Below are positions 192 through 62,975 of a stretch of DNA of 64,000 nt, in pieces. The notes under the pieces were generated by a model. It was not told the DNA's origin. It ran no database searches and saw only the letters and a list, made by a program, of their open reading frames with translations. Position 1 is the first letter of the stretch, and every line of letters starts with the position of its first letter. Made by a program: the position numbers and the translations under genes. The stretch comes from Patescibacteria group bacterium UBA926 (lineage in GTDB: Bacteria; Patescibacteriota; Doudnabacteria; UBA920). The stretch is taken from positions 34,479 through 98,478 of the forward strand of contig DBDS01000004.1 in the NCBI GenBank assembly GCA_002293685.1, given 5' to 3'.

Positions 192-227
192 CTACCCCGA
201 TTTGTGCGGCCGCACAAATCGGGGTAG
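192..227. repeat. 36-bp perfect palindrome CTACCCCGATTTGTGCGG|CCGCACAAATCGGGGTAG with a GCGGCCGC core
   Basis: Read directly from the sequence. An identical copy lies at 21768-21803 (42-bp perfect palindrome 21765-21806). It sits between convergent genes. Confidence 0.9.
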
Positions 228-14556: not shown

Positions 14557-14582
14557 CATCATAAACCAGAATTTGTTTATGA

Positions 14583-14740
14583 TGTCATCCCGGCAGCTAC
14601 AAGTGGTCCCCGCTTTCGCGGGGATAAACTCCGCGAGGACGAGGGCTAGCCGGGATCCATACCCTTTAAACTAATGGATTCCCACCTTCGAGCTCGCGAT
14701 GCTCGGGCTCTGCCCGAGCAAGCTCGTGTGGGAATGACAA
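14583..14740. repeat. composite GC-rich palindromic element E4 (TGTCATCCCGGCAGCTACAAG...CTAGCCGGGATCC followed by GGATTCCCAC...GTGGGAATGACAA)
   Basis: The first half is the reverse-complement homolog of elements at 26060-26150 and 57601-57679. It lies between argS and ileS and ends 9 bp before the ileS start. Confidence 0.85.
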
Positions 14741-14749
14741 CGGAAAATT

Positions 14750-17700
14750 ATGACAGAACAAACTAACAAACCACAATCAAATACTCCAAATTTTAACGAA
14801 CAAGAACTAGAAGTTTTAAAGTTTTGGGCCGAGCAAAATATTTTTGAGAAGAGCTTAGAGCAAACTAAAGATGCTAAACCTTTTGTTTTTTATGATGGAC
14901 CACCGTTTGCAACAGGAGTTCCTCACTACGGACACATTTTAATTTCGGCCGTTAAGGATGCATTCGGTCGTTATCAAACCATGAAGGGCAATTCTGTGCG
15001 TCGTGTTTGGGGATGGGATTGTCATGGGTTGCCTATTGAAAATATTGTTGAAGCCAAGCTTGGTATTTCTGGAAAGAAGCAAATTGAAGAAGTCGGTGTC
15101 GAAAAGTTCAACGCAGCTTGTCGTGAAAACGTCCTTACCTATGTAGACGAATGGGGTCGTACCATTGAGCGATTAGCACGCTGGGTTAACTTCAAGGACT
15201 CCTATAAAACTATGGACACCACCTACATGGAAAGTGTCTGGTGGGGTGTAAAGCAAGTGTGGGATAAAGATTTAATTTACCCTGACCATAAAGTTTTGCT
15301 TTACTGCAGTCGCTGTGAAACGCCATTGTCGAATTTTGAAGTGGCGATGGACAACAGTTATAAAGATGTCACAGAAGCTTCTGTTTTCGTCAAGTTCAAG
15401 TTAAATAGTGGTCAGCGAATTTTGGATTTCATGACCGACGATAAAACTTATGCTTTGGCGTGGACCACAACACCGTGGACATTACCTGGTAATACTGCGC
15501 TAAACATTGGCCCAGAAATCACTTACGTTATTGTTGAGCAAAACGGCGATAACTATATTTTAGCTAAGGACAGATTGGAAATTTTAGAAGGGCAATACGA
15601 AGTTAAGACAGAAATCAGTGCACGTTCTTTGGAGGGCTTAGCTTACGAACCATTGTATCCTGGCGTAATTTCCGATGAATCTGGTACTGCTCACAAGATA
15701 TATATAGAGGATTATGTCACAACTACTGATGGAACAGGGATAGTTCATAATGCTGCGATGTATGGGGAAGAAGATTTCGCGGCTGCCAAGGCACGCAATT
15801 TACCTCGTCAACATATGTTGGATGCGAAGGGTGAGTATCTACCATCTGCGCCTGAGAGCTTGCGCGGCGTGTTCTTTAAAGATGCTGATAAAATTGTTCT
15901 CGATGAATTGACTAGCAAAAATTTGGTTTATAAAACTCTTAACTACACTCACAGTTATCCTCACTGTTGGCGTTGTGGTACAGCGTTGTACTACTCAGCG
16001 TTACCAGCTTGGTTTATCAATATTCAAAAAGTGAAAGCGCGAATGCTCGAACTTAACGAAGGAATCAATTGGTATCCTGAACATCTTAAACACGGTCGCT
16101 TCGCGCAAGGAATTGAAAATGCGCCTGATTGGAACATTTCACGTAACCGTTATTGGGCAACGCCTTTGCCATTTTGGTTGTGTGAGAGCGAAGATTGCGA
16201 TAACAAAGTTTGTATAGGCTCAATTGATGAACTAAAAACCAGAGCTTCAAATTTCGATGAAGTTTATCCAAACTACGATCCGAACCCCTCCCTACCCTCC
16301 CCTCAGGAGGGGAGGGATAGGGAGGGGTCAATTGATTTGCATAAACCATTCATTGATAGAATCAAACTGCCTTGTGAAAAATGTAGCGGTGTAATGGCTC
16401 GCGTTCCTGAAGTAATTGATTGCTGGGTTGAATCTGCGAGCATGCCGTTTGCAGAACTCCATGCCCCGTTTGAAAACCAAGATTTGTTAGAACAGCGCTT
16501 ACCAGCAGATTTTGTATCTGAATATATTCCGCAGACCCGGGCTTGGTTCTACGTGTCGCATGTAATGAGCACGATCATTTTCGACAAAGCTCCGTTTAAA
16601 AATGTGATTACAACCGGAACAGTTTTAGCAGAAGACGGTACAAAGATGTCGAAATCAAAAAATAATTTCCCTGACCCAAATCTTGTTATTGATCAATACG
16701 GCGCAGATCCACTTCGTTTTTATCTTTTGACGAGTTCGATTGTAACCGGTGAAGACTTGAATTTCTCTGAAGCTGGCGTTTCTGAAGTAAACCGAAAGTT
16801 AAGTTTAATTCTTTGGAACACATTCCAGTTTTATAGAATGTATAGCCACGACACAATTGGCACCGAAGCGCCTCACGTAACTCACAGCCTAGATGTTTGG
16901 ATGCTGTCTAGATTGTTTGCAACACATGCTGAAGTTACAAAACAATTAGATGGTTTTAACACAGTGAAGGCAGGACGTGCTATTTCTGAATTAGTTACCG
17001 AACTTTCAACTTGGTTTGTTCGTCGCAGCCGCGATAGAATTAAATCCGGTGGGGAAGACGCTCGCACCGCGCTTCAAGTATTAGGTTTCAGTCTTGTTGA
17101 AATCAGCAAGATGCTTGCGCCATTTATGCCGTATCTCAGTGAAAAGATTTACAAAGAACTTACCGGTGAAGAATCAGTGCACTTAGCTTCTTGGAGTGAA
17201 GTTCGTGAGTATCGTCAAAGTAGTTTGGATGAAATGTCGGCTTTACGTTCAATAGTTGAAATCGGTCTAAGTCTTCGTAAAGAACACAACTTAAAAGTTC
17301 GCCAACCACTCGCAGAATTACAGTACCAAATTGCTAACGAAGAATTGAATCTAGACGAATCACTCGAGCAAATCATTGCCGAAGAAATGAATGTGAAGAA
17401 AGTGACAAACACCGAAGTAATCTCTCGCACCAACTGGGTCTCGAAAGCGGATAATGGTTTTATAGTTGCACTAAATACAGAGTTATCACAAGAATTAAAA
17501 GATGAAGGTTTGGCTCGTGATATCGAACGCGCCGTTCAAGATTTGCGAAAGAAGAGTGGTCTAAAAGTCGGACAAATTGTTGATTTGTATTTCACAACTA
17601 AGGACGACAACCTTGCCGAGATTCTTACATCATTAGTTGATCGAAAAAAGACTTTTATCAATCAAATTAAAACTAGCTTAGAGATTGAAGCTGATTACGA

Positions 17701-17755
17701 GACCCAGGCAACGATTAATGGCTCTGTGGTTTGGCTCGGCTTAGTTTTGGTGTAA
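14750..17755 (+). CDS. ileS: isoleucine--tRNA ligase
   Basis: 1001-aa protein with HYGH and KMSKS motifs. It matches IleRS throughout and carries a 45-bp palindromic in-frame insert. Confidence 0.95.
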   Translation: MTEQTNKPQSNTPNFNEQELEVLKFWAEQNIFEKSLEQTKDAKPFVFYDGPPFATGVPHYGHILISAVKDAFGRYQTMKGNSVRRVWGWDCHGLPIENIVEAKLGISGKKQIEEVGVEKFNAACRENVLTYVDEWGRTIERLARWVNFKDSYKTMDTTYMESVWWGVKQVWDKDLIYPDHKVLLYCSRCETPLSNFEVAMDNSYKDVTEASVFVKFKLNSGQRILDFMTDDKTYALAWTTTPWTLPGNTALNIGPEITYVIVEQNGDNYILAKDRLEILEGQYEVKTEISARSLEGLAYEPLYPGVISDESGTAHKIYIEDYVTTTDGTGIVHNAAMYGEEDFAAAKARNLPRQHMLDAKGEYLPSAPESLRGVFFKDADKIVLDELTSKNLVYKTLNYTHSYPHCWRCGTALYYSALPAWFINIQKVKARMLELNEGINWYPEHLKHGRFAQGIENAPDWNISRNRYWATPLPFWLCESEDCDNKVCIGSIDELKTRASNFDEVYPNYDPNPSLPSPQEGRDREGSIDLHKPFIDRIKLPCEKCSGVMARVPEVIDCWVESASMPFAELHAPFENQDLLEQRLPADFVSEYIPQTRAWFYVSHVMSTIIFDKAPFKNVITTGTVLAEDGTKMSKSKNNFPDPNLVIDQYGADPLRFYLLTSSIVTGEDLNFSEAGVSEVNRKLSLILWNTFQFYRMYSHDTIGTEAPHVTHSLDVWMLSRLFATHAEVTKQLDGFNTVKAGRAISELVTELSTWFVRRSRDRIKSGGEDARTALQVLGFSLVEISKMLAPFMPYLSEKIYKELTGEESVHLASWSEVREYRQSSLDEMSALRSIVEIGLSLRKEHNLKVRQPLAELQYQIANEELNLDESLEQIIAEEMNVKKVTNTEVISRTNWVSKADNGFIVALNTELSQELKDEGLARDIERAVQDLRKKSGLKVGQIVDLYFTTKDDNLAEILTSLVDRKKTFINQIKTSLEIEADYETQATINGSVVWLGLVLV
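16284..16328. repeat. in-frame palindromic insert in ileS: ACCCCTCCCTACCCTCCCCT|CAGGAGGGGAGGGATAGGGAGGGGT
   Basis: Near-perfect 45-bp palindrome, GC-rich, encoding PSLPSPQEGRDREGS (15 codons). Confidence 0.85.
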
Positions 17756-21764: not shown

Positions 21765-21806
21765 ACTCTACCCCGATTTGTGCGGCCGCACAAATCGGGG
21801 TAGAGT
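21765..21806. repeat. 42-bp perfect palindrome (second copy of the GCGGCCGC-core hairpin) between convergent genes
   Basis: ACTCTACCCCGATTTGTGCGG|CCGCACAAATCGGGGTAGAGT. Its 36-bp core is identical to 192-227. Confidence 0.9.
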
Positions 21807-25700: not shown

Positions 25701-26654
25701 ATGACAATAGATACTCTTAAAAGTTTATTAAAACACTATGGTCTAAATCCTAACAAGACATACGGTCAGCATTTTTTAATGGACGAAACAATTCTTGAAG
25801 ACATGGCTGATGTTGCTGATGTTAAAGCGGGGGATATGGTTGTAGAAATCGGACCAGGGATTGGTAACTTGACTGAAATTTTGTTAAAGCGAGAAGCAAC
25901 TGTTTTATCAATTGAAAAAGATGAACAGTTTATAAGAGTTCTTCGCACGCTTTCAAAGCAATACAAAAATTTTGAGTATGAGTTAATTGATGCATTGAAA
26001 TTTAATTTCTCCTCTTTCCTGTCATCCCCGGGCGAGCGTAGTGAGAACCGGGGATCCACTAGTGGGTCCCGGCTAGCCCGCGCGACTTCGTCCGCCAAAA
26101 TCTCTACGAGATTTAGGCGGACTTCGTCGCTTGTAGCTGCCGGGAAGACACCACAGTATAAAGTTGTCGCCAACATTCCTTACTACATCACTGGGAAAAT
26201 TGTTCAATTGTTTTTGAAGCAGGAGCATAAACCAAAAAGCATGACATTGCTTATGCAGAAAGAAGTTGCTAACAATATTGTTGCGAAAGTTGGACAACTA
26301 AACTTGTTAGCAATTTCTGTACAACTATATGGCGACGCAAAATTAGTTACAAAAGTTCCTGCTTTTAAATTTCATCCGGCTCCAAAAGTTGAGAGCGCAG
26401 TTATTCATATCGAATTATTTTCCAAACCAAAATATAAATTGAAAGACGAGCAAAAGTTTTTTCGAGTGTTGCGCGCTTGCTTTGCAGGGAAGCGAAAGCA
26501 AATCCATAACACACTGACAAATAATTTAGGACTAGAAAAAACTGTTGCATTGCAAAGTTTGGAAAATATAAATGTTGACCCAACGGCAAGACCACAGCAA
26601 CTAACAATCGAACAATGGATTAAGTTAGTAGACTCAATTGAATTGCCAAATTAA
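25701..26654 (+). CDS. rsmA: 16S rRNA (adenine1518/1519-N6)-dimethyltransferase RsmA/KsgA with ~44-codon in-frame GC-rich insert
   Basis: Contains GQHFLMDE, VVEIGPGIGNLT and YKVVANIPYYITG motifs. It is 317 aa versus ~270 for typical KsgA. The insert lies between FNF and YKVVANIPY. Confidence 0.9.
   Translation: MTIDTLKSLLKHYGLNPNKTYGQHFLMDETILEDMADVADVKAGDMVVEIGPGIGNLTEILLKREATVLSIEKDEQFIRVLRTLSKQYKNFEYELIDALKFNFSSFLSSPGERSENRGSTSGSRLARATSSAKISTRFRRTSSLVAAGKTPQYKVVANIPYYITGKIVQLFLKQEHKPKSMTLLMQKEVANNIVAKVGQLNLLAISVQLYGDAKLVTKVPAFKFHPAPKVESAVIHIELFSKPKYKLKDEQKFFRVLRACFAGKRKQIHNTLTNNLGLEKTVALQSLENINVDPTARPQQLTIEQWIKLVDSIELPN
26019..26150. repeat. GC-rich palindromic element E6 inserted in frame in rsmA
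   Basis: TGTCATCCCCGGGCGAGCGTAGTGAGAACCGGGGATCCACTAGTGGGTCCCGGCTAGCCCGCGCGACTTCGTCCGCCAAAATCTCTACGAGATTTAGGCGGACTTCGTCGCTTGTAGCTGCCGGGAAGACA. It is homologous to 53002-53039, 57601-57679 and 14583-14657. Confidence 0.9.
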
Positions 26655-38898: not shown

Positions 38899-39055
38899 GT
38901 CATTCTGAACAAAGCAACTTCATCATTCTGAGCTCTTCGAAGAATCTACCTCTGTCATTCTGAAGCCGTAGGCTGAAGAATCCAATAATTAGAGATCCTT
39001 CGCTTCGCCCGCCAAAATCCCTTTGAGATTTAGGCGGATTACGCTCAGGATGGCA
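38899..39055. repeat. GC-rich element E8: three tandem GTCATTCTGA(A/G) sub-units plus a CGCCAAAATCCCTTTGAGATTTAGGCGGA module
   Basis: Read directly from the sequence. The CGCCAAAATC...GAGATTTAGGCGGA module also occurs inside the rsmA insert at 26085-26125. Confidence 0.85.
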
Positions 39056-41238: not shown

Positions 41239-41283
41239 AAATACTATACACAAAATTTTATATTATCCTTGGCTTAACTAAGT

Positions 41284-41376
41284 ATCCCCGGCGAAGGCCG
41301 GGGCCTACATCACAGATCCCGGATCGCCTTTGGCGTCCGGGAATACTTTTTTTGTCATCTCAGCGTCTGGGAATAC
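41284..41376. repeat. GC-rich palindromic element E9 (ATCCCCGGCGAAGGCCGGGG ... ATCCCGGATCGCCTTTGGCGTCCGGGAAT ... TGTCATCTCAGCGTCTGGGAAT)
   Basis: Homologous to the segment at 62717-62790 inside miaA. Confidence 0.85.
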
Positions 41377-46023: not shown

Positions 46024-46111
<88 letters not shown>

Positions 46112-46550
46112 ACGTCGTACTTGTCTCCGAGCTTTCGGTACAGGCTAAAGCCTGTCCCTTACGCTCTCCATCAAGTACTCCTCTCACATTCACGCTTAAC
46201 CTCGCTATCGCTCGGCCCAAGTGTGAATGTGGTAAACTCACTTTCTTGGTCGCGGATACGGCAAGCCGTCCCGCTCCTTGTTCGCACTGGCGAAGCCAGA
46301 CGCTCACATGCTAAAGAATATTGTTGCCCTACGGGCATCTAAGATAAATCTAAATTGTGGATACTGTAAGTAGGACCTCCCTAACTACACTGTCTAAATG
46401 ACTCTACTATTATAACATTTTACCAAACTAAATCAAAAACGAGCCGTACTCTAGAATTGGCTCGTTTTTTGTTGGGTTTCGATTTCTGGTAGTACTATCA
46501 TTTCTGGATGGACGCCCACTTGGACTCAACTGGGCGTAGACCAAAAAGGA

Positions 46551-48505: not shown

Positions 48506-48598
<93 letters not shown>

Positions 48599-48810
48599 TC
48601 GTCGCAACAACCTCCATCCGTTCAAATTTGGCTAAAGCCAAATTTTCACTAGTTCCGGTGTTGCTCCTCTCACATTCACGCTTAACCTCACTACGCTCGG
48701 CCCAAGTGTGAATGTGTCAAATTATTAATACAGTCGCGGATGCTGCAAGCGGCCCCGCAGATATGTATCAATAACTCACTCATTTTACTGCAAAAGTGGT
48801 CATTGGTCAA

Positions 48811-52631: not shown

Positions 52632-53144
52632 ATGTTTAAGAAAGCTCGACCACTGAAAGATCCTTCCGATTACGACCACGGCTATCAATATGCCTTATTC
52701 TTGCTCAATTTAAGCATGCGGACTGTTGGCGAAGTAAGAGACAAAATGACTAGTCGCGGATACACTTCTACTGTAATAAACGAAGTTATAAACAATCTGT
52801 TACAAGAAAAATACTTGAACGACTCAAATTATGCCGAAGTTTTTATAAATAGTATGAAAAACTATAAAACTTGGGGTCGGTTCATGATGAAAAAGAAGAT
52901 GTATGAGAAAAAATTACCGAAAGAATTAATTGACGAAAGCTTAAATGAATTTTTAAGTACCAAAGAAGAGAAGGAAATTGCTATGAGGTATCTATCTTCC
53001 ATGTCATCCTCGGTCGAGCGAAGCGAGAACCGGGGATCCATTGAATGGATTAAATCCCTGCCTTACGACGAAAAACAAAAACTAATGAGAAAGTTATTAT
53101 CACGCGGGTTTGGGATGGACATAGTAACAAAACTAATAAAATAA
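52632..53144 (+). CDS. recX: RecX-family regulatory protein with short in-frame GC-rich insert
   Basis: 170-aa ORF with a three-helical-repeat pattern (YALFLLNLSMRTVGEVRDKM...). Confidence 0.6.
   Translation: MFKKARPLKDPSDYDHGYQYALFLLNLSMRTVGEVRDKMTSRGYTSTVINEVINNLLQEKYLNDSNYAEVFINSMKNYKTWGRFMMKKKMYEKKLPKELIDESLNEFLSTKEEKEIAMRYLSSMSSSVERSENRGSIEWIKSLPYDEKQKLMRKLLSRGFGMDIVTKLIK
53002..53039. repeat. truncated copy of the rsmA-type GC-rich element inside recX (TGTCATCCTCGGTCGAGCGAAGCGAGAACCGGGGATCC)
   Basis: ~85% identical to 26021-26055. It is translated in the same frame (ERSENRGS). Confidence 0.85.
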
Positions 53145-57600: not shown

Positions 57601-57679
57601 ATCCTCGGGCAAAGACCCGGGGTCTGGATCCCGGCTAGCTCGCGCCCCGCTTCACGGGACTTGTAGCTGCCGGGATGAC
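57601..57679. repeat. GC-rich element E12 ending CCGGGATGAC, which overlaps the gatA ATG
   Basis: GGATCCCGGCTAGCTCGCGCCCCGCTTCACGGGACTTGTAGCTGCCGGGATGAC. It is homologous to 26060-26150 and to the reverse complement of 14583-14657. Confidence 0.85.
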
Positions 57680-59195
57680 TTATAGCATGAACTACGAAGA
57701 ATTATCTCTCGCTGAGTTGCGGGAAAAATTGGATAACAAAGAAGTTTCGTCAGTCGAACTGACGAACTATTTTTTGGCGCGAATCAAAGAGCAGAATCCG
57801 GAGCTCAATGCGTTCATTACAATTACTGAACAAGAAGCGTTAGAACAAGCAAAAGAAGCTGATGAATTTATAAACTCACCAGGCGACAACTTTCCACTAA
57901 CAGGAATTCCTTTTGCAGCGAAAGATTTATTTTTAACTAAGGGTATTCGTACAACAGCAGCTTCAAAAATTTTAGATAACTATATCCCGCCGTACGACGC
58001 AACTGTAATTGCAAAACTGAAAGAGCAGAAAGCAGTGTTGCTTGGTAAAGCGAACATGGATCAGTTTGCGCATGGCTCATCGGGTGAAACATCTGCTTAT
58101 GGCGCAACCAAAAATCCGTGGGACAAAACTCGTATGCCTGGCGGTTCTTCTTCGGGTAGTGCTGCTGCAGTGGCTGCGGGGCTTGCTCCTTGGGCTTTAG
58201 CTACAGAAACAGGCGGCAGTATTCGCCAACCTGCTTCGTTAACCGGCGTAAGTGGTTGGAAACCAACTTATGGCCGTGTTTCGCGATATGGAGTAGCGGC
58301 GATGGCTTCAAGTTTGGACAGCATGGGCGCTATGGCTACAAGCGTAAAAGATTTGGCAATGATTGCCGAAAGTATTTCTGGTCATGATCCAAAAGATGGC
58401 ACAACTGGAGAGCGTGAAGTTCCTGCTTACTCAAAATTACTGGACGCAAATATCAAAGGAATGAAAATCGGTGTGCCTAAAGAATATTTTGTTGATGGAA
58501 TGGAAGCAGGGGTGCGGGAAGCTGTCGAGAAGGCAATTGAAGAAATAAAAAACTTAGGTGCAGAAATTGTTGAGGTTAGTTTACCAAACACAAAGTACGG
58601 TTCGCTTGTTTACGCAATCGTATGTCCAAGCGAAGTATCTTCAAACCTAGCTCGTTACGATGGAATTCGTTACGGCCATTCCACATCTGAAGGCGGCAGT
58701 TTATTAGATGTGTACCAGAAAAGCCGCGCGGAGGGCTTTGGTGACGAAGCCAAACGCAGAATTATGACAGGTACTTACGTTCTTAGCGCGGGCTATTACG
58801 ATGCTTATTACAAAAAAGCGCAGCGCGTGCGTCGTAAGATTTTAAATGAATTCGAAGAAGTTTTTAAGCGGGTAGATATTTTACTTGCACCATCAAGTCC
58901 GAATGTTGCTCAGCCTTTGGGGAACGCCGCGAGTGATCCATTGTTTGGATATATCGCCGATCAATTAAACATCCCAGCTTCATTGGCAGGTTTGCCTGCA
59001 TTGTCGTTGCCGTGTGGTTTTGCTTCCCCTCCTTTCCAAGGAGGGGTGGCCGAGTCCGCGACAGCGGGCGAGGACGGGGTGCTACTTCCAGTTGGACTTC
59101 AAATCATCGGTCCGCAATGGGGCGAACAAAAAGTTTTTAATGTTGGATACGCTTATCAGCAAGCAACTGATTGGCATACTAAGAAAGCAAAATAA
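57675..59195 (+). CDS. gatA: Glu-tRNA(Gln) amidotransferase subunit A with ~18-codon in-frame hairpin insert
   Basis: Amidase signature GGSSSGSAAAVAAGL, with catalytic Ser/Lys context. The true start may be Met at 57687. Confidence 0.95.
   Translation: MTYSMNYEELSLAELREKLDNKEVSSVELTNYFLARIKEQNPELNAFITITEQEALEQAKEADEFINSPGDNFPLTGIPFAAKDLFLTKGIRTTAASKILDNYIPPYDATVIAKLKEQKAVLLGKANMDQFAHGSSGETSAYGATKNPWDKTRMPGGSSSGSAAAVAAGLAPWALATETGGSIRQPASLTGVSGWKPTYGRVSRYGVAAMASSLDSMGAMATSVKDLAMIAESISGHDPKDGTTGEREVPAYSKLLDANIKGMKIGVPKEYFVDGMEAGVREAVEKAIEEIKNLGAEIVEVSLPNTKYGSLVYAIVCPSEVSSNLARYDGIRYGHSTSEGGSLLDVYQKSRAEGFGDEAKRRIMTGTYVLSAGYYDAYYKKAQRVRRKILNEFEEVFKRVDILLAPSSPNVAQPLGNAASDPLFGYIADQLNIPASLAGLPALSLPCGFASPPFQGGVAESATAGEDGVLLPVGLQIIGPQWGEQKVFNVGYAYQQATDWHTKKAK
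59037..59090. repeat. in-frame CCCCTCCTTTCCAAGGAGGGG hairpin element in gatA
   Basis: Perfect 8-bp stem. The insert encodes ASPPFQGGVAESATAGEDG between the conserved CGF and LPVGLQIIG. It is homologous to 62155-62215 in miaA. Confidence 0.85.
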
Positions 59196-59669
59196 ATGAA
59201 CAAGCCTTCAGCGATTACTAAAGGTATATTTATAATCTTAATGCTACTAATTGCAGCGTTTGCTTTATTGCCTTTATACTTGATTAAGCAAAACGTAACT
59301 GCTTTGGTTGATGGTCGTCAAATAGTAGGCGAAGTCATGAATGTTCAGACCCAGATTACTGGCAGTTGTTTTTCAGAAGTTGACTGCCGTTCAGATGTGA
59401 TTAAGCAGATAAAGTATTTTGATGATAATGGGAATGAACAGTTTTTTACAACTTCAGCTTATAGTAGTGTTTCTTTTCTGGGATTGTTTGATGAGGGTGA
59501 TAAAGTGAATTTAGTGGTGATTAATGAGGATTTTAGTAGTATTCAAGTGTATCTACCTTTTGTAACATGGGCTTACATTTTTCTACTTCTTGTGATTGTT
59601 GCTCTGGCTGTTAAAGGAGCAATTGCATTTTTACATCACAACAAGAACATACAAGGTAATCAAATATGA
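59196..59669 (+). CDS. hypothetical two-TM membrane protein inserted between gatA and gatB
   Basis: Overlapping stop/start codons on both sides (translationally coupled). Confidence 0.45.
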   Translation: MNKPSAITKGIFIILMLLIAAFALLPLYLIKQNVTALVDGRQIVGEVMNVQTQITGSCFSEVDCRSDVIKQIKYFDDNGNEQFFTTSAYSSVSFLGLFDEGDKVNLVVINEDFSSIQVYLPFVTWAYIFLLLVIVALAVKGAIAFLHHNKNIQGNQI

Positions 59670-61252
59670 ACTTAAACGGATACAAACCAGTTATCGGACT
59701 CGAAATCCACGTACAGCTTGCAACCAAAAGCAAGATGTTTTCTAGCGCGCCTAATAATCCTGACGAAAAACAGCCAAATACTAATATAGACGAAGTCGTT
59801 ACGGCGGAACCGGGAACTTTGCCGGTGCTTAATAAAGAAGCGGTTCGTCTTGGGGTGATGGTGGGTTTGGCTTTAAATTGCGAAATTCCTGAATACTCAA
59901 AATTTGATCGGAAACATTATTTCTATCCAGATTTACCGAAAGGTTATCAGATTTCTCAGTACGATGAACCAATTGCCTTAAACGGTTGGGTAGAAATTTT
60001 GGTACCAACAAATGGGGAACGCGATGCTTACACTAAACGCATCCGCATCACCCGCGCACACTTGGAAGAAGATGCTGGTAAAAACATGCACCCAGAAGGT
60101 TTGCCATATTCGCTCGTTGATTACAATCGAGCCGGTAGTCCGCTTTTAGAAATTGTCACCGAACCAGATATAGAAACTGCCGAAGAGGCGCGCATCTTCT
60201 TGCAGGAATTACAAAGAATTGTTCGCTATGTCGGAGCGAGCTCTGCTGATATGGAAAAAGGCACAATGCGTTGTGAGCCAAACATTTCAGTTCGCAAACC
60301 CGGAGAAGAAAGCTTGCCAAAATACAAGGTTGAAGTGAAAAACATCAACAGTTTTAAATTTGCGGAAGCAGCAATCAATTACGAAATTCCTCGTCACATC
60401 GAAATGCTTGAAGCAGGTGGCATGCCAAAGCAAGTCACGATGGGTTGGAATGAGAAAACTAACAAGACTGTTGAACAACGCAGTAAGGAAGAAGCAAATG
60501 ATTATCGCTATTTCCCCGAACCAGATTTAGCGCCAATGCGTTTTACAAAAGAATTTCTTGATGAACTGCGGGGAGATTTACCTGAATTGCCATCACAAAA
60601 GCGCGTGCGTTTCAAACAAGAGTTTGCTCTTGATGAATCTGTAATCGAAACTTTACTAAATTGGAAAGACCTCAATGAATATTTTGAGGATGTTGTTAGT
60701 GAGATTGACGCTTGGATAATTACTGACTCCAGTGTCATTCTGAGTGATAGCGAAGAATCTCAATCATCAGATCCTTCGGCTTCGCCTCAGGATGACGGGA
60801 AAGAGATCTCTCAGGATGACGGAAAAAGAGCGAGATTAATCAAAGCGGCGGCGAATTGGTGCATTCAAGAATTTTCAGCTTTACTAAATGCCGACTTGGC
60901 AAACCCAAGTGACTCAAAAGTTTCAGCAGAAAATATGGCTGAACTTGTAAAGCTAATTGACGCTGGAAAAATTTCTGGTTCAGCAGCGAAGCAAGTATTT
61001 AAAAAGATGTATGAAACTGGCGGTGAGCCAGACCATATAGTAGAAGAACTTGGCTTGTCACAGGTTAGTGATGAAGGAGCAATTGAAACTGCAGTAGACG
61101 AAATCATCGCTGCAAATCCGAAAGCCGTAGAGGATTACAAAGCTGGTCAACAAAAATCGTTCGGCTTCTTGGTAGGGCAAGTGATGGCGGCCATGAAAGG
61201 AAAAGCTAATCCACAAGTGGTTAACGAAATTTTAAAAGAGAAATTATCATAA
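59666..61252 (+). CDS. gatB: Asp/Glu-tRNA amidotransferase subunit B with ~30-codon in-frame insert before the C-terminal YqeY-like domain
   Basis: Conserved N-terminus MNLNGYKPVIGLEIHVQL and the GatB/GatE catalytic core. Confidence 0.95.
   Translation: MNLNGYKPVIGLEIHVQLATKSKMFSSAPNNPDEKQPNTNIDEVVTAEPGTLPVLNKEAVRLGVMVGLALNCEIPEYSKFDRKHYFYPDLPKGYQISQYDEPIALNGWVEILVPTNGERDAYTKRIRITRAHLEEDAGKNMHPEGLPYSLVDYNRAGSPLLEIVTEPDIETAEEARIFLQELQRIVRYVGASSADMEKGTMRCEPNISVRKPGEESLPKYKVEVKNINSFKFAEAAINYEIPRHIEMLEAGGMPKQVTMGWNEKTNKTVEQRSKEEANDYRYFPEPDLAPMRFTKEFLDELRGDLPELPSQKRVRFKQEFALDESVIETLLNWKDLNEYFEDVVSEIDAWIITDSSVILSDSEESQSSDPSASPQDDGKEISQDDGKRARLIKAAANWCIQEFSALLNADLANPSDSKVSAENMAELVKLIDAGKISGSAAKQVFKKMYETGGEPDHIVEELGLSQVSDEGAIETAVDEIIAANPKAVEDYKAGQQKSFGFLVGQVMAAMKGKANPQVVNEILKEKLS
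60733..60822. repeat. GC-rich element E14 inside gatB (TGTCATTCTGAG...CCTCAGGATGACGG...CTCAGGATGACGG)
   Basis: Homologous to the reverse complement of the intergenic element at 26668-26730. It encodes SVILSDSEESQSSDPSASPQDDGKEISQDDG. Confidence 0.85.
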
Positions 61253-61814: not shown

Positions 61815-62975
61815 TCACCTTAGGAGCTTTTTGGCAAGGGTGATTAACTCGTCTGGTGAATCGGACCAATGAATATCTTTATTCCGTTTCCACCAAGTTA
61901 GTTGACGTTTGGCGTATTGTCTAATGGATATCACTGACAGTTCCTGCATTTGTTTGGCAGTAATTTTATTCTGCAAAAACTGAGCTGTATATTTATATTC
62001 TAATCCGAAGCTTTCAAATCTTTTCCAAGATACACCATTTTTGTGAAGCGAACTTACTTCATCGATCATACCGCGCTTTAACCAAGACTTCATTCGTTTA
62101 CTGATTTTACCTTCTAATACTTCCATGGATGGGTTTATTCCTAACCAAAGTGTCGACCACCCCGTCTTCGCCTTCGGCGAATCCACCCCTCCTTGAAAAG
62201 GAGGGGAGAGCAAAGGCACAGGTTTGCCAGTTGATTTAACAATTTCAATTGCTCGTATCAGACGGTGAGGATTTTTTTCATCAATAGTTTTTGCACGTTC
62301 CGGGTCTAGCTTCATAAGCATCTTAAACATCTCAGTAGTGCTGAGTTTAGATAATTTTGCTCGGAGTTTCAAATCAGGTTTGACTTTTGGAAATTGTTGA
62401 TTGAATGCAACTGAATCAATCCAGTGCATAGTGCCGCCGCAGAGGATTGGTAGCTTACCGCGTTTTAAAATATCCGAAATTATTTTATGTGCCTTTCGCT
62501 GAAATTTCTCTGCGGAATATTGTAGCTTTGGATTAGCTTCATCAATTAAGTAGTGGGGAATTGATTTGTAAATAAAGACTTTTTTGGAAATAGATCCTTC
62601 GACTCGCTTCGCTCGCTCAGGATGACGTGGAGTAGATCCTTCGACTCGCTTCGCTCGCTCAGGATGACGTGGAGTAGATCCTTCGACTCGCTTCGCTCGT
62701 CCGTGAATACTAGATGGGATAGCAGTATCCCCGGCGAATGCCGGGGTCTGTAATGTAGATCCCGGATAGCCCTGCGGGCTTCCGGGATGACTGGAAAATG
62801 GAACTGTCATCCATTTTCCAGTCACTTTCCCGCTTCCAATATCTAGCCCACGATAAATTTGTCGGCTGTCTGCCGAAATAATTTCACCATTAAATTTCTT
62901 GGCTAATTTAACAGCCAATTCACTTTTTCCACTAGCTGTTGGACCGACAACAATTACGAGCTTTGGTTTGTTCAT
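61815..62975 (-). CDS. miaA: tRNA dimethylallyltransferase MiaA carrying two in-frame GC-rich inserts (~85 extra codons)
   Basis: P-loop VIVVGPTASGKSELAVKLA and ISADSRQIYRGLDIGSGK, then a long insert before the conserved SIPHYLID. It is 386 aa versus ~300 aa for typical MiaA. Confidence 0.9.
   Translation of the reverse strand: MNKPKLVIVVGPTASGKSELAVKLAKKFNGEIISADSRQIYRGLDIGSGKVTGKWMTVPFSSHPGSPQGYPGSTLQTPAFAGDTAIPSSIHGRAKRVEGSTPRHPERAKRVEGSTPRHPERAKRVEGSISKKVFIYKSIPHYLIDEANPKLQYSAEKFQRKAHKIISDILKRGKLPILCGGTMHWIDSVAFNQQFPKVKPDLKLRAKLSKLSTTEMFKMLMKLDPERAKTIDEKNPHRLIRAIEIVKSTGKPVPLLSPPFQGGVDSPKAKTGWSTLWLGINPSMEVLEGKISKRMKSWLKRGMIDEVSSLHKNGVSWKRFESFGLEYKYTAQFLQNKITAKQMQELSVISIRQYAKRQLTWWKRNKDIHWSDSPDELITLAKKLLR
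62155..62215. repeat. in-frame CCCCTCCTTGAAAAGGAGGGG hairpin element in miaA (homolog of the gatA insert)
   Basis: Its reverse complement CCCCTCCTTTTCAAGGAGGGGTGG...GACGGGGTGG aligns with 59037-59090. It encodes LSPPFQGGVDSPKAKTG. Confidence 0.85.
62591..62823. repeat. complex GC-rich insert in miaA: 42-bp tandem repeat x2.4, a homolog of intergenic E9, and a GACTGGAAAATGG...CCATTTTCCAGTC hairpin
   Basis: TAGATCCTTCGACTCGCTTCGCTCGCTCAGGATGACGTGGAG is repeated head to tail (62591-62700). The next segment, 62717-62790, is ~80% identical to 41284-41344. Confidence 0.9.

What the first reader, a model, noticed from the sequence alone, without database searches (positions are those of the whole stretch)
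59037..59090. A second element family (CCCCTCC-loop-GGAGGGG hairpin) is inserted in frame in gatA, miaA and ileS and encodes an 'SPPFQGGV' patch
Seen in sequence:
- gatA 59037-59090 (CCCCTCCTTTCCAAGGAGGGGTGGCCGAGTCCGCGACAGCGGGCGAGGACGGGGTG) and the reverse complement of miaA 62155-62215 (CCCCTCCTTTTCAAGGAGGGGTGGATTCGCCGAAGGCGAAGACGGGGTGG) are clearly homologous.
- Both translate to SPPFQGGV...
- ileS 16284-16328 carries a related 45-bp near-perfect palindrome (CCCCTCCCTACCCTCCCCTCAGGAGGGGAGGGATAGGGAGGGG).

This is a distinct sub-family from the TGTCATCC-type elements.
Basis: seen in the sequence. Interest (0 to 1): 0.6.

Follow-up and report, generated by a model that had tools for sequence, protein, structure and literature searches.

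The report
Triplex-motif DNA repeats inside essential genes
Three housekeeping genes of this candidate-phyla-radiation bacterium carry short G/C-rich DNA repeats of the known BoxC / intrastrand-triplex kind, inserted in frame into tolerant protein loops; the same repeat family occurs in many bacterial phyla and on phage contigs, where it mostly sits between genes.

Summary
The coordinates are a few bases off: gatA 59025-59084 (+), miaA 62155-62207 (-), ileS 16285-16327. All three are lineage-specific in-frame insertions, because close Doudnabacteria relatives have empty sites.

The full unit is pyrimidine arm, loop, purine arm, connector, then a G-rich tail. The tail is the mirror image of the purine arm (AAGGAGGGG, then GGGGTGGTT). 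This is the layout of a class II purine-motif intrastrand triplex, known as BoxC / PIT / TMECO. In gatA and miaA the connector holds a second, variable hairpin.

Viral contigs gave 40 more stretches. Tails covary with stems. Identical 44-50-nt units sit at unrelated loci in different phyla.

The constraint is on the DNA, not the peptide:
- Copies are read in all three frames and in both orientations.
- The gatA copy is 56/57 nt identical between two genomes whose gatA synonymous sites are about 44% diverged.

In-frame copies are enriched in CPR genomes. I found no transposase, no terminator signature and no Rfam membership.

Verdict: a new variant of a known kind. It is a dispersed triplex-motif repeat tolerated inside genes, much as palindromic elements are in Rickettsia.

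The parts
57675..59195 (+). gatA (Asp/Glu-tRNA amidotransferase subunit A), host gene of copy 1
   Evidence: E = 5.7e-152 to solved GatA 4wj3_A. Homologues carry Pfam Amidase.
59025..59084 (+). Copy 1, whole unit. Read in frame as SPPFQGGVAESATAGEDGVL. Net +54 nt relative to the empty site in L003.
59026..59034 (+). Copy 1 pyrimidine arm, CCCCTCCTT (preceded by T at 59025)
   Evidence: Position -1 is T in 77% of oriented copies elsewhere.
59038..59046 (+). Copy 1 purine arm, AAGGAGGGG. It pairs with the pyrimidine arm across the 3-nt loop TCC (59035-59037).
   Evidence: DNA fold gives a 9-bp stem. The whole unit folds at -16.9 kcal/mol, z = -2.4.
59047..59075 (+). Copy 1 connector, TGG + irregular GC-rich hairpin + AC (second hairpin, H2)
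   Evidence: This particular H2 is a weak hairpin: 17 of 100 shuffles fold as well.
59076..59084 (+). Copy 1 mirror tail, GGGGTGCTA. It matches 8 of 9 positions of the rule GGGG[AT]GG[AT][AT], the mirror of the purine arm.
   Evidence: The L001 orthologue has GGGGTGGTG.
61815..62975 (-). miaA (tRNA dimethylallyltransferase), host gene of copy 2
   Evidence: E = 9.5e-50 to solved MiaA 3d3q_A.
62155..62207 (-). Copy 2, whole unit. Read in frame as SPPFQGGVDSPKAKTGW. On the minus strand: pyrimidine arm 62198-62206, loop 62195-62197, purine arm 62186-62194, connector TGG + hairpin TTCGCC-GAA-GGCGAA + GAC at 62164-62185, tail GGGGTGGTC at 62155-62163 (8/9).
   Evidence: (-16.5 kcal/mol, z = -3.6).
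14750..17755 (+). ileS (isoleucyl-tRNA synthetase), host gene of copy 3
16285..16327 (.). Copy 3, a palindromic double unit read as PSLPSPQEGRDREG. Segments: CCCCTCCC (16285-92), TA, CCCTCCCCTC (16295-304), AG, GAGGGGAGGG (16307-16), ATA, GGGAGGGG (16320-27). The mirror tail is perfect on both strands.
   Evidence: (-23.4 kcal/mol, z = -6.1).

Best explanation
The three sequences are copies of a dispersed, structured DNA repeat of the class II intrastrand-triplex-motif kind. This is the kind described in E. coli as BoxC / PIT / TMECO.

A unit runs: T, 9-nt pyrimidine arm, 2-3-nt loop, complementary purine arm, connector, 9-nt G-rich tail. The connector is either 2-5 nt or a variable hairpin. 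The tail is the mirror of the purine arm, with G opposite G and A or T opposite A. As single-stranded DNA, such a strand can fold into a hairpin with the tail lying in the major groove (G.GC, A.AT and T.AT triplets).

Inferred mechanism: the repeat spreads and is maintained at the DNA level. It moves between loci, between genomes, and probably on phages. The enzyme responsible is unknown.

In the gene-dense CPR genome, copies survive only under three conditions. They must land in length-tolerant surface loops. They must change the length by a multiple of three. They must contain no stop codon. The third condition is almost automatic, because the core is stop-free in all six frames.

The encoded peptide (SPPFQGGV...) is a passenger, not a selected protein module.

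Shown here: architecture, covariation, dispersal, insertion polymorphism, and DNA-level rather than peptide-level conservation. Inferred: triplex formation in vivo, the mobility mechanism, and neutrality for the proteins.

The confidence of 0.7 is for the whole statement. For identity as a dispersed class II triplex-motif repeat alone I would say about 0.85. For the inferred steps, about 0.5.
For: **1. Architecture**
- Of 147 CCCCTCCTT-NNN-AAGGAGGGG hairpins, 95 have the full mirror tail GGGG[AT]GG[AT][AT] within 45 nt on at least one side (92 on one side only). A direct-repeat control matches 17.
- In viral contigs the figures are 40 of 50 against 3.
- After GGGGWGG, the next base is T in 98% of copies and the one after is T in 69%. 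This fits T.AT triplets over the AA/TT end of the stem.

**2. Covariation**
- There are 61 hairpins with other purine arms, scored on both strands (122 views). A zero-mismatch mirror tail appears in 43 views. The two controls give 17 and 5.
- Tails follow the stem: GGGAGAGGG gives GGGTGAGGG, AAGGGGGAGA gives AGAGGGGGTT, AAGGGGAGGG gives GGGTGGGGTA.

**3. Second hairpin**
- 30 of 33 distinct long connectors fold into a hairpin of at least 4 bp, with very different sequences. 24 of 33 beat at least 95% of shuffles.

**4. Dispersal**
- Identical 44-nt and 50-nt units occur at loci whose flanks are only 12-45% identical. The hosts are a betaproteobacterium, Contendobacter, Acidobacteria, Chloracidobacterium and two viral contigs.
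- The genome scan hit its 120-locus limit across many phyla.

**5. Insertion polymorphism in the window's own lineage**
- gatA, miaA and ileS sites are empty in close relatives.
- The same gatA site carries five structural variants in different relatives. Their arm changes are compensatory: TT/AA, TC/GA, AC/GT.
- The same miaA site holds another variant in L126. L128 has a perfect two-hairpin copy elsewhere in miaA.

**6. Constraint on the DNA rather than the peptide**
- In-frame copies in eight other Pfam-verified genes use all three frames and both orientations.
- Window and L001 gatA are 77% identical in nucleotides, and 232 of 417 third positions match. Inside the element, 56 of 57 nt and 18 of 19 third positions match (Fisher p = 5e-4).

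**7. Tolerance**
- The consensus has no stop codon in any of six frames outside loop 1.
- The short variants at the gatA site are 33 nt, exactly 11 codons.

**8. Literature**
- This class forms a stable triplex in vitro as single-stranded DNA and is polymorphic among E. coli strains (PMC4666352).
Against: - No triplex was detected in vivo for the E. coli motif. Its function and mobility are unknown (PMC4666352).
- No target-site duplication or terminal inverted repeats are visible. At each site the element replaces 1-9 native codons rather than inserting cleanly.
- No recurrent neighbouring gene or transposase was found in 160 loci.
- The window copies have 8/9 tails, not 9/9. The gatA second hairpin is irregular.
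- The connectors in gatA and miaA (29 and 22 nt) exceed the loop limits used to define the class in the literature (at most 6 or 10 nt).
- The near-identity between the window and L001 copies could reflect a recent patch transfer rather than constraint.
- The GatA tree is too poorly resolved to count gains and losses.
- Only 64 kb of this genome was available.
Confidence: 0.7

Rival explanations
1. The element is RNA-level. It would be a structured RNA or an mRNA hairpin, either a relative of the Rfam whalefall-1 motif or a hairpin that sequesters the Shine-Dalgarno-like AAGGAGG. Its role would be in translation or mRNA stability.
For: - Both hairpins would also form in RNA.
- The best Rfam hit, though below threshold, is whalefall-1: full-length model match, E = 0.011-0.023, same layout of hairpin 1, hairpin 2 and tail.
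- That motif was rated a certain RNA by its authors (PMC2864571).
- Both window copies, and most in-frame copies, lie in the sense strand.
- AAGGAGG is the Shine-Dalgarno consensus (my own knowledge).
Against: - The score is 17.8 bits against a gathering score of 37. No copy in 18 loci reached the gathering score.
- The covarying mirror tail cannot be explained by Watson-Crick pairing.
- Purine-motif triplexes are reported not to form in RNA (PMC4666352).
- Copies occur in both orientations relative to genes (L041 and L053 are antisense).
- No flanking terminator or promoter signature is seen.
Confidence: 0.1
2. The loops arose or diversified in place. They would be ancestral or self-generated low-complexity linkers at mutation-prone loops (slippage, templated repair), not copies of a dispersed element.
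For: - The same gatA and miaA sites carry different variants in different lineages.
- The elements replace native codons without target duplications.
- The loops vary in length across CPR, for example the KPSDGG-type loops in GatA.
Against: - The same 9-nt triad plus tail occurs in at least 120 loci of other phyla and on viral contigs.
- Identical 44-50-nt units occur at unrelated loci.
- Empty sites exist in the nearest relatives.
- Mirror symmetry cannot be produced by template switching, which makes inverted repeats (inference).
- Two unrelated genes in one window share 24 of 25 nt of hairpin 1 plus TGG (pair I9).
Confidence: 0.1
3. The peptide is the selected product. SPPFQGGV... would be a functional protein module, such as a binding or flexible-linker patch, recruited into several enzymes.
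For: - The same octapeptide appears in GatA and MiaA.
- All 19 residues are conserved between the window and P0002.
- The insert lies in a loop between two strands.
Against: - The same DNA unit is read as PLLxKEG, PSLxRRG or SPPxxGG in different genes, and in both orientations.
- Conservation extends to synonymous positions (18 of 19).
- Most copies in other phyla appear to be intergenic: only 3 of 132 non-CPR copies were verified as lying inside a gene.
- Variants at the gatA site keep the DNA architecture while the peptide changes: SPPLVEGQGEV, SPPLEKGLGEV, SPPREEGLGEV.
Confidence: 0.04
4. The G-rich half (purine arm plus tail) forms a G-quadruplex, and that is the selected structure.
For: GG-A-GGGG ... 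GGGG-T-GG supplies four G-runs.
Against: - A quadruplex needs neither the complementary C-rich arm nor position-by-position mirror covariation of the A/T positions. Both are observed.
- The tail ends in TT in most copies (T at 98% and 69% of the two positions), matching the AA of the arm.
Confidence: 0.04

Closest known systems
BoxC / PIT elements / TMECO of E. coli and other Proteobacteria: class II purine-motif intrastrand triplex motifs (Hoyne et al. 2000; Holder et al. 2015, PMC4666352)
   Same: - Same order of parts: pyrimidine arm, loop, purine arm, loop, mirror tail.
- 9-nt G/C-rich stems, with A or T opposite A in the tail.
- Dispersed, multicopy, and present or absent among close relatives.
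- Palindromic double units exist, like the ileS copy.
- No terminator activity and no linked transposase.
   Different: - Different stem sequence: CCCCTCCTT or CCCTCCCC, against CCCTCNCCC.
- In gatA and miaA the second loop is 22-29 nt and holds its own hairpin.
- The copies here lie inside essential genes and are translated. TMECO is always intergenic in E. coli.
- The host is a CPR bacterium. This sequence family spans many phyla and viral contigs.
Rickettsia palindromic elements (RPE), and intragenic MITEs such as Coxiella QMITE1 (review PMC10969869)
   Same: - Small repeats inserted in frame into unrelated housekeeping genes of a reduced genome.
- Tolerated as extra peptide segments.
- Insertion polymorphism among relatives.
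   Different: - RPEs are about 150 bp and each family encodes a conserved peptide. Here the units are 33-60 nt and are read in different frames.
- RPEs have no mirror-repeat tail.
- RPEs are restricted to Rickettsia. This family is found across phyla.
Rfam whalefall-1 motif (RF01762; Weinberg et al. 2010, PMC2864571)
   Same: - Two hairpins followed by a conserved G-rich 3' segment.
- In the consensus shown by cmscan, the segment GgGuGAGG mirrors the purine arm GGaGaG. It may therefore be the same kind of element.
   Different: - The score is below threshold (17.8 against 37 bits).
- Different stem sequence.
- It is annotated as a non-coding RNA and known only from whale-fall metagenomes.
REP/BIME elements mobilised by RAYT transposases
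   Same: Short G/C-rich dispersed palindromes with hairpin potential, for which mobilisation through single-stranded DNA is plausible.
   Different: - No conserved GTAG-type head.
- No RAYT or IS200-like gene recurs near copies.
- REPs are extragenic and lack the mirror tail.
H-DNA-forming homopurine/homopyrimidine mirror repeats
   Same: The ileS copy is a perfect palindrome of mirror repeats. In duplex DNA it could form H-DNA of either isomer.
   Different: Classical H-DNA tracts are long simple mirror repeats, not dispersed units with a defined hairpin and tail.

Membership tests
Class II intrastrand triplex motif (BoxC/PIT/TM class) | A homopyrimidine arm and a complementary homopurine arm form a hairpin of at least 6-9 bp | tested here: met
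   9-bp perfect stems in gatA and miaA, a 10-bp central stem in ileS.
Class II intrastrand triplex motif (BoxC/PIT/TM class) | A third segment 3' of the purine arm is its mirror image, with G opposite G and A or T opposite A | tested here: met
   gatA 8/9, miaA 8/9, ileS 8/8 on both strands. Across the family, 95 of 147 hairpins have a perfect tail against 17 for the control. Tails covary with stems.
Class II intrastrand triplex motif (BoxC/PIT/TM class) | Short loops (1-6 nt in ITxF, 0-10 nt in Hoyne et al.) | tested here: not met
   Loop 1 is 3 nt. Loop 2 is 29 nt in gatA and 22 nt in miaA, with an internal hairpin. ileS (loops of 2-3 nt) and the short variants at the gatA site in relatives meet the limit. 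The limit is a search setting rather than a structural requirement.
Class II intrastrand triplex motif (BoxC/PIT/TM class) | The single strand actually folds into a triplex (CD, NMR, polymerase stop) | not testable with these tools
   Shown in vitro only for the E. coli sequence (PMC4666352).
TMECO proper (E. coli BoxC sequence family) | Consensus CCCTCNCCC N3-6 GGGNGAGGG N3 GGGNGAGGG | tested here: not met
   The window stems are CCCCTCCTT and CCCTCCCC. Same class, different sequence family.
TMECO proper (E. coli BoxC sequence family) | Intergenic location | tested here: not met
   All three window copies are inside ORFs and in frame.
Rfam whalefall-1 (RF01762) | Covariance-model score at or above the gathering score of 37 bits | tested here: not met
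   17.8 bits for the gatA copy. No hit at the gathering score in the window or in 18 other loci.
Rickettsia palindromic elements / intragenic MITEs | In-frame insertion into unrelated housekeeping genes, absent from orthologues | tested here: met
   Eight further Pfam-verified genes in other genomes.
Rickettsia palindromic elements / intragenic MITEs | Size of about 100-150 bp, terminal inverted repeats, target-site duplication, family-specific conserved peptide | tested here: not met
   Units are 33-60 nt. No terminal inverted repeats or duplications appear at filled versus empty sites. The peptide differs with reading frame.
REP/RAYT | An associated RAYT (IS200-like tyrosine transposase) gene and a conserved tetranucleotide head | tested here: inconclusive
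   No recurrent protein family other than common sensor kinases and phage structural genes near 160 loci. The window's own ORFs were not all scanned, and only 64 kb of the genome was seen.

The most novel reading that the evidence does not exclude
This hairpin-plus-mirror-tail unit is a new type of mobile DNA. Its recognition or transposition intermediate would be an intrastrand triplex in single-stranded DNA. It would be moved in trans by a still unidentified enzyme and carried between phyla by phages. The Rfam whalefall-1 'RNA' and E. coli BoxC would be members of the same superfamily. The base-precise filled and empty sites inside CPR genes would then be the first material from which its insertion rules can be read.
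Probability: 0.15. Interest if true: 0.85.

Novelty: new variant of a known kind. Interest (0 to 1): 0.55.

Why it matters
BoxC / PIT / triplex-motif repeats have been known since the 1990s. No function or mobility mechanism has been found for them, and they were described as strictly intergenic.

Four things here go beyond that picture:
- One sequence family of this class is spread over many bacterial phyla and viral contigs.
- It has a two-hairpin version that published triplex searches would miss, because their loop limits are too short.
- In gene-dense CPR genomes it sits, translated, inside essential genes such as gatA, miaA and ileS.
- Inside a gene, filled and empty sites can be compared codon by codon, and DNA-level constraint can be separated from peptide-level constraint. 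The gatA copy shows the former.

This gives a concrete way to study how these repeats move and whether the triplex matters.

There are also two practical points. Odd Pro/Gly-rich loops in CPR protein predictions may be repeat-derived. An Rfam 'RNA' motif may in fact be a DNA element.

Tried and rejected
- **Terminator role.** No intergenic copies occur in the window. There is no A- or T-run enrichment next to 136 oriented copies. PIT elements are reported to lack terminator activity.
- **Known RNA family.** Nothing reached the gathering score in the window or in 18 loci. Only a sub-threshold whalefall-1 hit appeared.
- **Linked transposase.** All-against-all BLAST of 1551 ORFs from 160 loci gave only sensor kinases, Lgt, an ABC ATPase and phage terminase, portal and head genes as recurrent families.
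- **Literature search by sequence strings.** It returned only irrelevant papers. A search for CPR in-frame repeats found none.
- **Exact gatA second hairpin in JGI metagenomes.** No hits, so there is no evidence that this exact variant sits at other loci.
- **AlphaFold model of GatA.** Poor overall (mean pLDDT 57 from a shallow alignment). I used it only to note that residues 451-470 form a low-confidence loop between two strands.
- **GatA phylogeny to count gains and losses.** The tree is unresolved. Window + P0002 are sisters in 4 of 200 bootstraps, yet the window is closer (p-distance 0.098-0.104) to proteins that lack this two-hairpin element (no insert, a short triplex-motif variant, or an unrelated insert) than to P0002 (0.136), which shares it. 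This is suggestive of lateral spread or repeated loss, but not decisive.
- **G-quadruplex and simple-palindrome readings.** Rejected because of the arm-to-tail mirror covariation.
- **Assembly artefact.** Rejected because the same element is in an independent assembly (L001, Logan DRR438464).
Full report
**Observation**

The quoted sequences are all present.
- The gatA string lies at 59026-59081. The finding's label 59037-59090 is about 11 nt off.
- The miaA copy is on the minus strand at 62155-62207.
- The ileS palindrome is 43 nt, at 16285-16327.

Both the gatA and miaA copies read SPPFQGGV in the gene's frame.

The pattern is far from chance:
- CCCCTCC-N2-12-GGAGGGG occurs twice, against 0.00 expected.
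- Seven of the eight CCCCTCC heptamers in the window fall in the three elements.
- A relaxed structural finder returns only these three loci in 64 kb, and none in 20 shuffles.

**Host and insertion status**

GatA homologues place the window in the candidate phyla radiation, close to Candidatus Doudnabacteria. The window is about 40% G+C.

- *gatA.* Every solved GatA has a 16-18-residue gap at the site. Among close relatives the site is empty in L003/L004 (PCGFSD-SLPVG), holds the same element in L001, and holds shorter variants in L002, L125, L126 and L127.
- *miaA.* MiaA is 299-302 aa in L002-L004 and 386 aa here, with a net gain of 11 residues at the SPPFQGGV site.
- *ileS.* The closest IleRS fragment (P0125, 85-89% identical) has ANLNT where the window has NPSLPSPQEGRDREGS.

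All three are therefore lineage-specific in-frame insertions into loops of variable length.

**What the unit really is**

Hits came from Chlamydiota, Bacteroidota, Acidobacteriota, Nitrospirota, Planctomycetota, Gamma- and Betaproteobacteria, Verrucomicrobiota, Chloroflexota, Nitrospinota, several CPR groups and others.

The flanks were not part of the search pattern, yet they are conserved. On one side the hairpin is followed, after 2-5 nt or after a longer connector, by GGGG(T/A)GGTT. That is the purine arm AAGGAGGGG read backwards, with A replaced by A or T.

- The full 9-nt mirror tail is present next to 95 of 147 hairpins. A direct-repeat control of the same composition matches 17.
- After GGGGWGG, the next base is T in 98% of copies and the following base is T in 69%.
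- Hairpins with other purine arms have tails that follow their own arm. Scored on both strands (61 hairpins, 122 views), 43 views have a zero-mismatch mirror tail. The controls give 17 and 5.

Mirror symmetry with G opposite G and A or T opposite A is the rule for an antiparallel purine-motif triple helix. The order pyrimidine arm, purine arm, third strand is class II in the published classification (PMC4666352).

In the window, the tails match 8/9 (gatA), 8/9 (miaA) and 8/8 on both strands (ileS).

**The two-hairpin version**

In gatA and miaA the connector between purine arm and tail is 29 and 22 nt and contains a second hairpin.

The same arrangement, T(GG) + hairpin + (A)C + GGGGTGGTT, occurs in about 30 loci from many phyla. 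Of 33 distinct connectors, 30 fold into a hairpin of at least 4 bp, with unrelated sequences. 24 beat at least 95% of shuffles.

The gatA second hairpin itself is irregular: 17 of 100 shuffles fold as well.

**The ileS copy**

This copy is a palindrome of mirror repeats: CCCCTCCC-TA-CCCTCCCCTC-AG-GAGGGGAGGG-ATA-GGGAGGGG. It is a double unit that is valid on both strands.

It is preceded by the matching CCCTCCCC arm in 83 of 124 cases. At least two palindromic doubles like the ileS copy occur among them.

It shares the architecture with the gatA and miaA copies but belongs to a different sequence family.

**Dispersal**

Identical whole units occur at unrelated loci.
- A 44-nt unit is shared by a betaproteobacterium, Contendobacter and an acidobacterium.
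- A 50-nt unit is shared by Pyrinomonadaceae, Chloracidobacterium and two viral contigs.
- Flank identity in these cases is 12-45%, which I take as unrelated.

Viral contigs hold 50 hairpins in 40 stretches. Of these, 40 have perfect tails, against 3 for the control.

**The constraint is on the DNA, not the peptide**

Eight further Pfam-verified genes carry the unit in frame:
- Lgt, a beta-CASP RNase, TsaE, UDP-glucose dehydrogenase and MgsA/RarA in CPR genomes;
- an Orn/DAP decarboxylase and a spermidine synthase in Chloracidobacterium;
- a GT2 glycosyltransferase in a Nitrospinota genome.

They use all three frames (SPPxxGG, PLLxKEG, PSLxRRG) and both orientations.

Between the window and L001, gatA is 77% identical in nucleotides. 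Only 232 of 417 third positions of conserved residues match. Inside the element, 56 of 57 nt and 18 of 19 third positions match (Fisher p = 5e-4). This means either purifying selection on the DNA itself or a recent patch transfer.

Distances favour non-vertical history but do not prove it.
- The window's GatA is closer to proteins that lack this two-hairpin element — no insert, a short triplex-motif variant, or an unrelated insert — (p-distance 0.098-0.104) than to P0002 (0.136), which shares the element.
- Window + P0002 are sisters in only 4 of 200 bootstraps of a poorly resolved tree.

**Why genes tolerate it**

- The core has no stop codon in any of six frames outside the 3-nt loop.
- The short variants at the gatA site are exactly 33 nt.
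- The gatA insert lies between two strands, in a loop that is absent from solved structures (the model is poor).

Verified in-frame copies make up 5 of 13 copies in CPR loci. In other phyla they make up 3, or up to 7 counting unverified cases, of 132 (Fisher p = 1e-4 to 1.4e-3). This is what one expects when a repeat that usually sits between genes enters genomes with little intergenic space.

**Hot spots**

- The gatA site holds five variants whose loop-proximal arm positions change in a compensatory way: TT/AA, TC/GA, AC/GT.
- The miaA site holds a different, decaying variant in L126.
- L128 has a perfect two-hairpin copy at another miaA position.
- At each site the element replaces 1-9 native codons, and there is no target duplication.

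I cannot tell from these data whether this reflects one old insertion evolving under structural constraint with repeated precise losses, or repeated targeting of the same sites.

**Comparison with what is known**

The class is known. BoxC (1990s), PIT elements (Hoyne et al. 2000) and TMECO (Holder et al. 2015) are class II motifs with 9-nt G/C-rich stems. According to PMC4666352:
- they form a stable triplex in vitro as single strands, but this was not detected in vivo;
- they have no promoter or terminator activity;
- they are not linked to mobile elements;
- they are polymorphic between strains;
- they are always intergenic in E. coli.

The window's copies differ in four ways: sequence family, the long structured second loop, the host phylum, and being intragenic and translated.

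In-frame tolerance of small repeats is known from Rickettsia palindromic elements (PMC10969869). Those are larger, keep a family-specific peptide, and lack the mirror tail.

The nearest Rfam model is whalefall-1. It scores 17.8 bits against a gathering score of 37, so the window copy is not a member. Its consensus tail also mirrors its purine arm, which suggests the motif may be a DNA element of this kind. This is an inference and I did not test it on the seed alignment.

**Negative results**

- No terminator signature.
- No recurrent neighbouring gene or transposase.
- No Rfam family at the gathering score.
- No copy of the exact gatA second hairpin in JGI metagenomes.
- No paper on in-frame repeats in CPR in the searchable library.

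**Verdict**

The elements are dispersed triplex-motif repeats. They are a new variant of a known kind, riding as translated passengers in essential CPR genes. The mobility mechanism and any role of the triplex remain inferred.

Noticed in passing
window 62570-62810 (miaA residues ~55-135), with 42-nt tandem repeats at 62591-62716: An insertion of about 80 residues in MiaA right after GKW. It is built from other G/C-rich repeats (HPERAKRVEGSTPR, 2.5 copies: the TGTCATCC-type family) plus a copy of repeat D6. It is absent from L002-L004. L126 has a different repeat-derived insert at the same site, so this is a second insertion hot spot in the same gene.
   Followed up: partly
window ~60730-60820 (gatB, 59666-61252): gatB carries a 29-residue in-frame insert (VILSDSEESQSSDPSASPQDDGKEISQDDG) of the TGTCATCC-type family. 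It is shared with L126 and absent from L002 and L003.
   Followed up: partly
window 192-227 and 21768-21803: Two identical copies of a perfect 36-nt palindrome, CTACCCCGATTTGTGCGGCCGCACAAATCGGGGTAG. This is a third small-repeat family.
   Followed up: no
window 26013-26153, 52995-53040, 14580-14664, 57620-57679, 41281-41328, 39003-39043: Further G/C-rich repeat families (D6, D7, D10, D13, I7, I20). Some lie inside ORFs and some just upstream of ileS and gatA. The window is unusually rich in small structured repeats.
   Followed up: no
window 46024-46236 and 48506-48721: Two tRNA-Ser genes (anticodons TGA and GCT) share about 200 nt of conserved sequence extending beyond the tRNA.
   Followed up: no
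window 59196-59669: A 157-aa ORF sits between gatA and gatB. Relatives have unrelated ORFs of 74-343 aa at this position, one of them with DUF5674.
   Followed up: no
L152 (viral contig IMGVR_UViG_3300001580_000190), ORF at minus-strand offset 66: A phage protein, apparently a head-morphogenesis protein (judged by eye), contains two adjacent in-frame copies of the unit (PPPYTSEGGGAKAPLLTKEGMGVV).
   Followed up: no
L073 7048-7312 (Thiomargarita MAG): A head-to-tail array of the short unit with a 41-nt period. It has at least five perfect copies, plus degenerate ones.
   Followed up: no
Rfam RF01762 consensus as printed: The conserved unpaired 3' segment of whalefall-1 (GgGuGAGG) is the mirror of its first hairpin's purine arm (GGaGaG). 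The motif may be a DNA triplex-motif repeat rather than an RNA.
   Followed up: partly
IleRS homologues: Many CPR IleRS hits are fragments or appear split. Several are fused to a His_Phos_1 (PF00300) domain.
   Followed up: no
L025, L043, L045, L073: The lipoprotein diacylglyceryl transferase gene lgt lies within 8 kb of a copy in four unrelated genomes. In L045 the copy is inside the gene. This may be chance.
   Followed up: no
L128 6001-7527 (gatA of a more distant relative): A different, longer insert (SPSPFDHSALSSWPKRGRAGEG) occupies the same GatA loop. It is built from a CTCCCTCTCC ... GAGGGGGAGGG-C-GGGGGAGGGG arrangement, with the long hairpin in the first loop.
   Followed up: no
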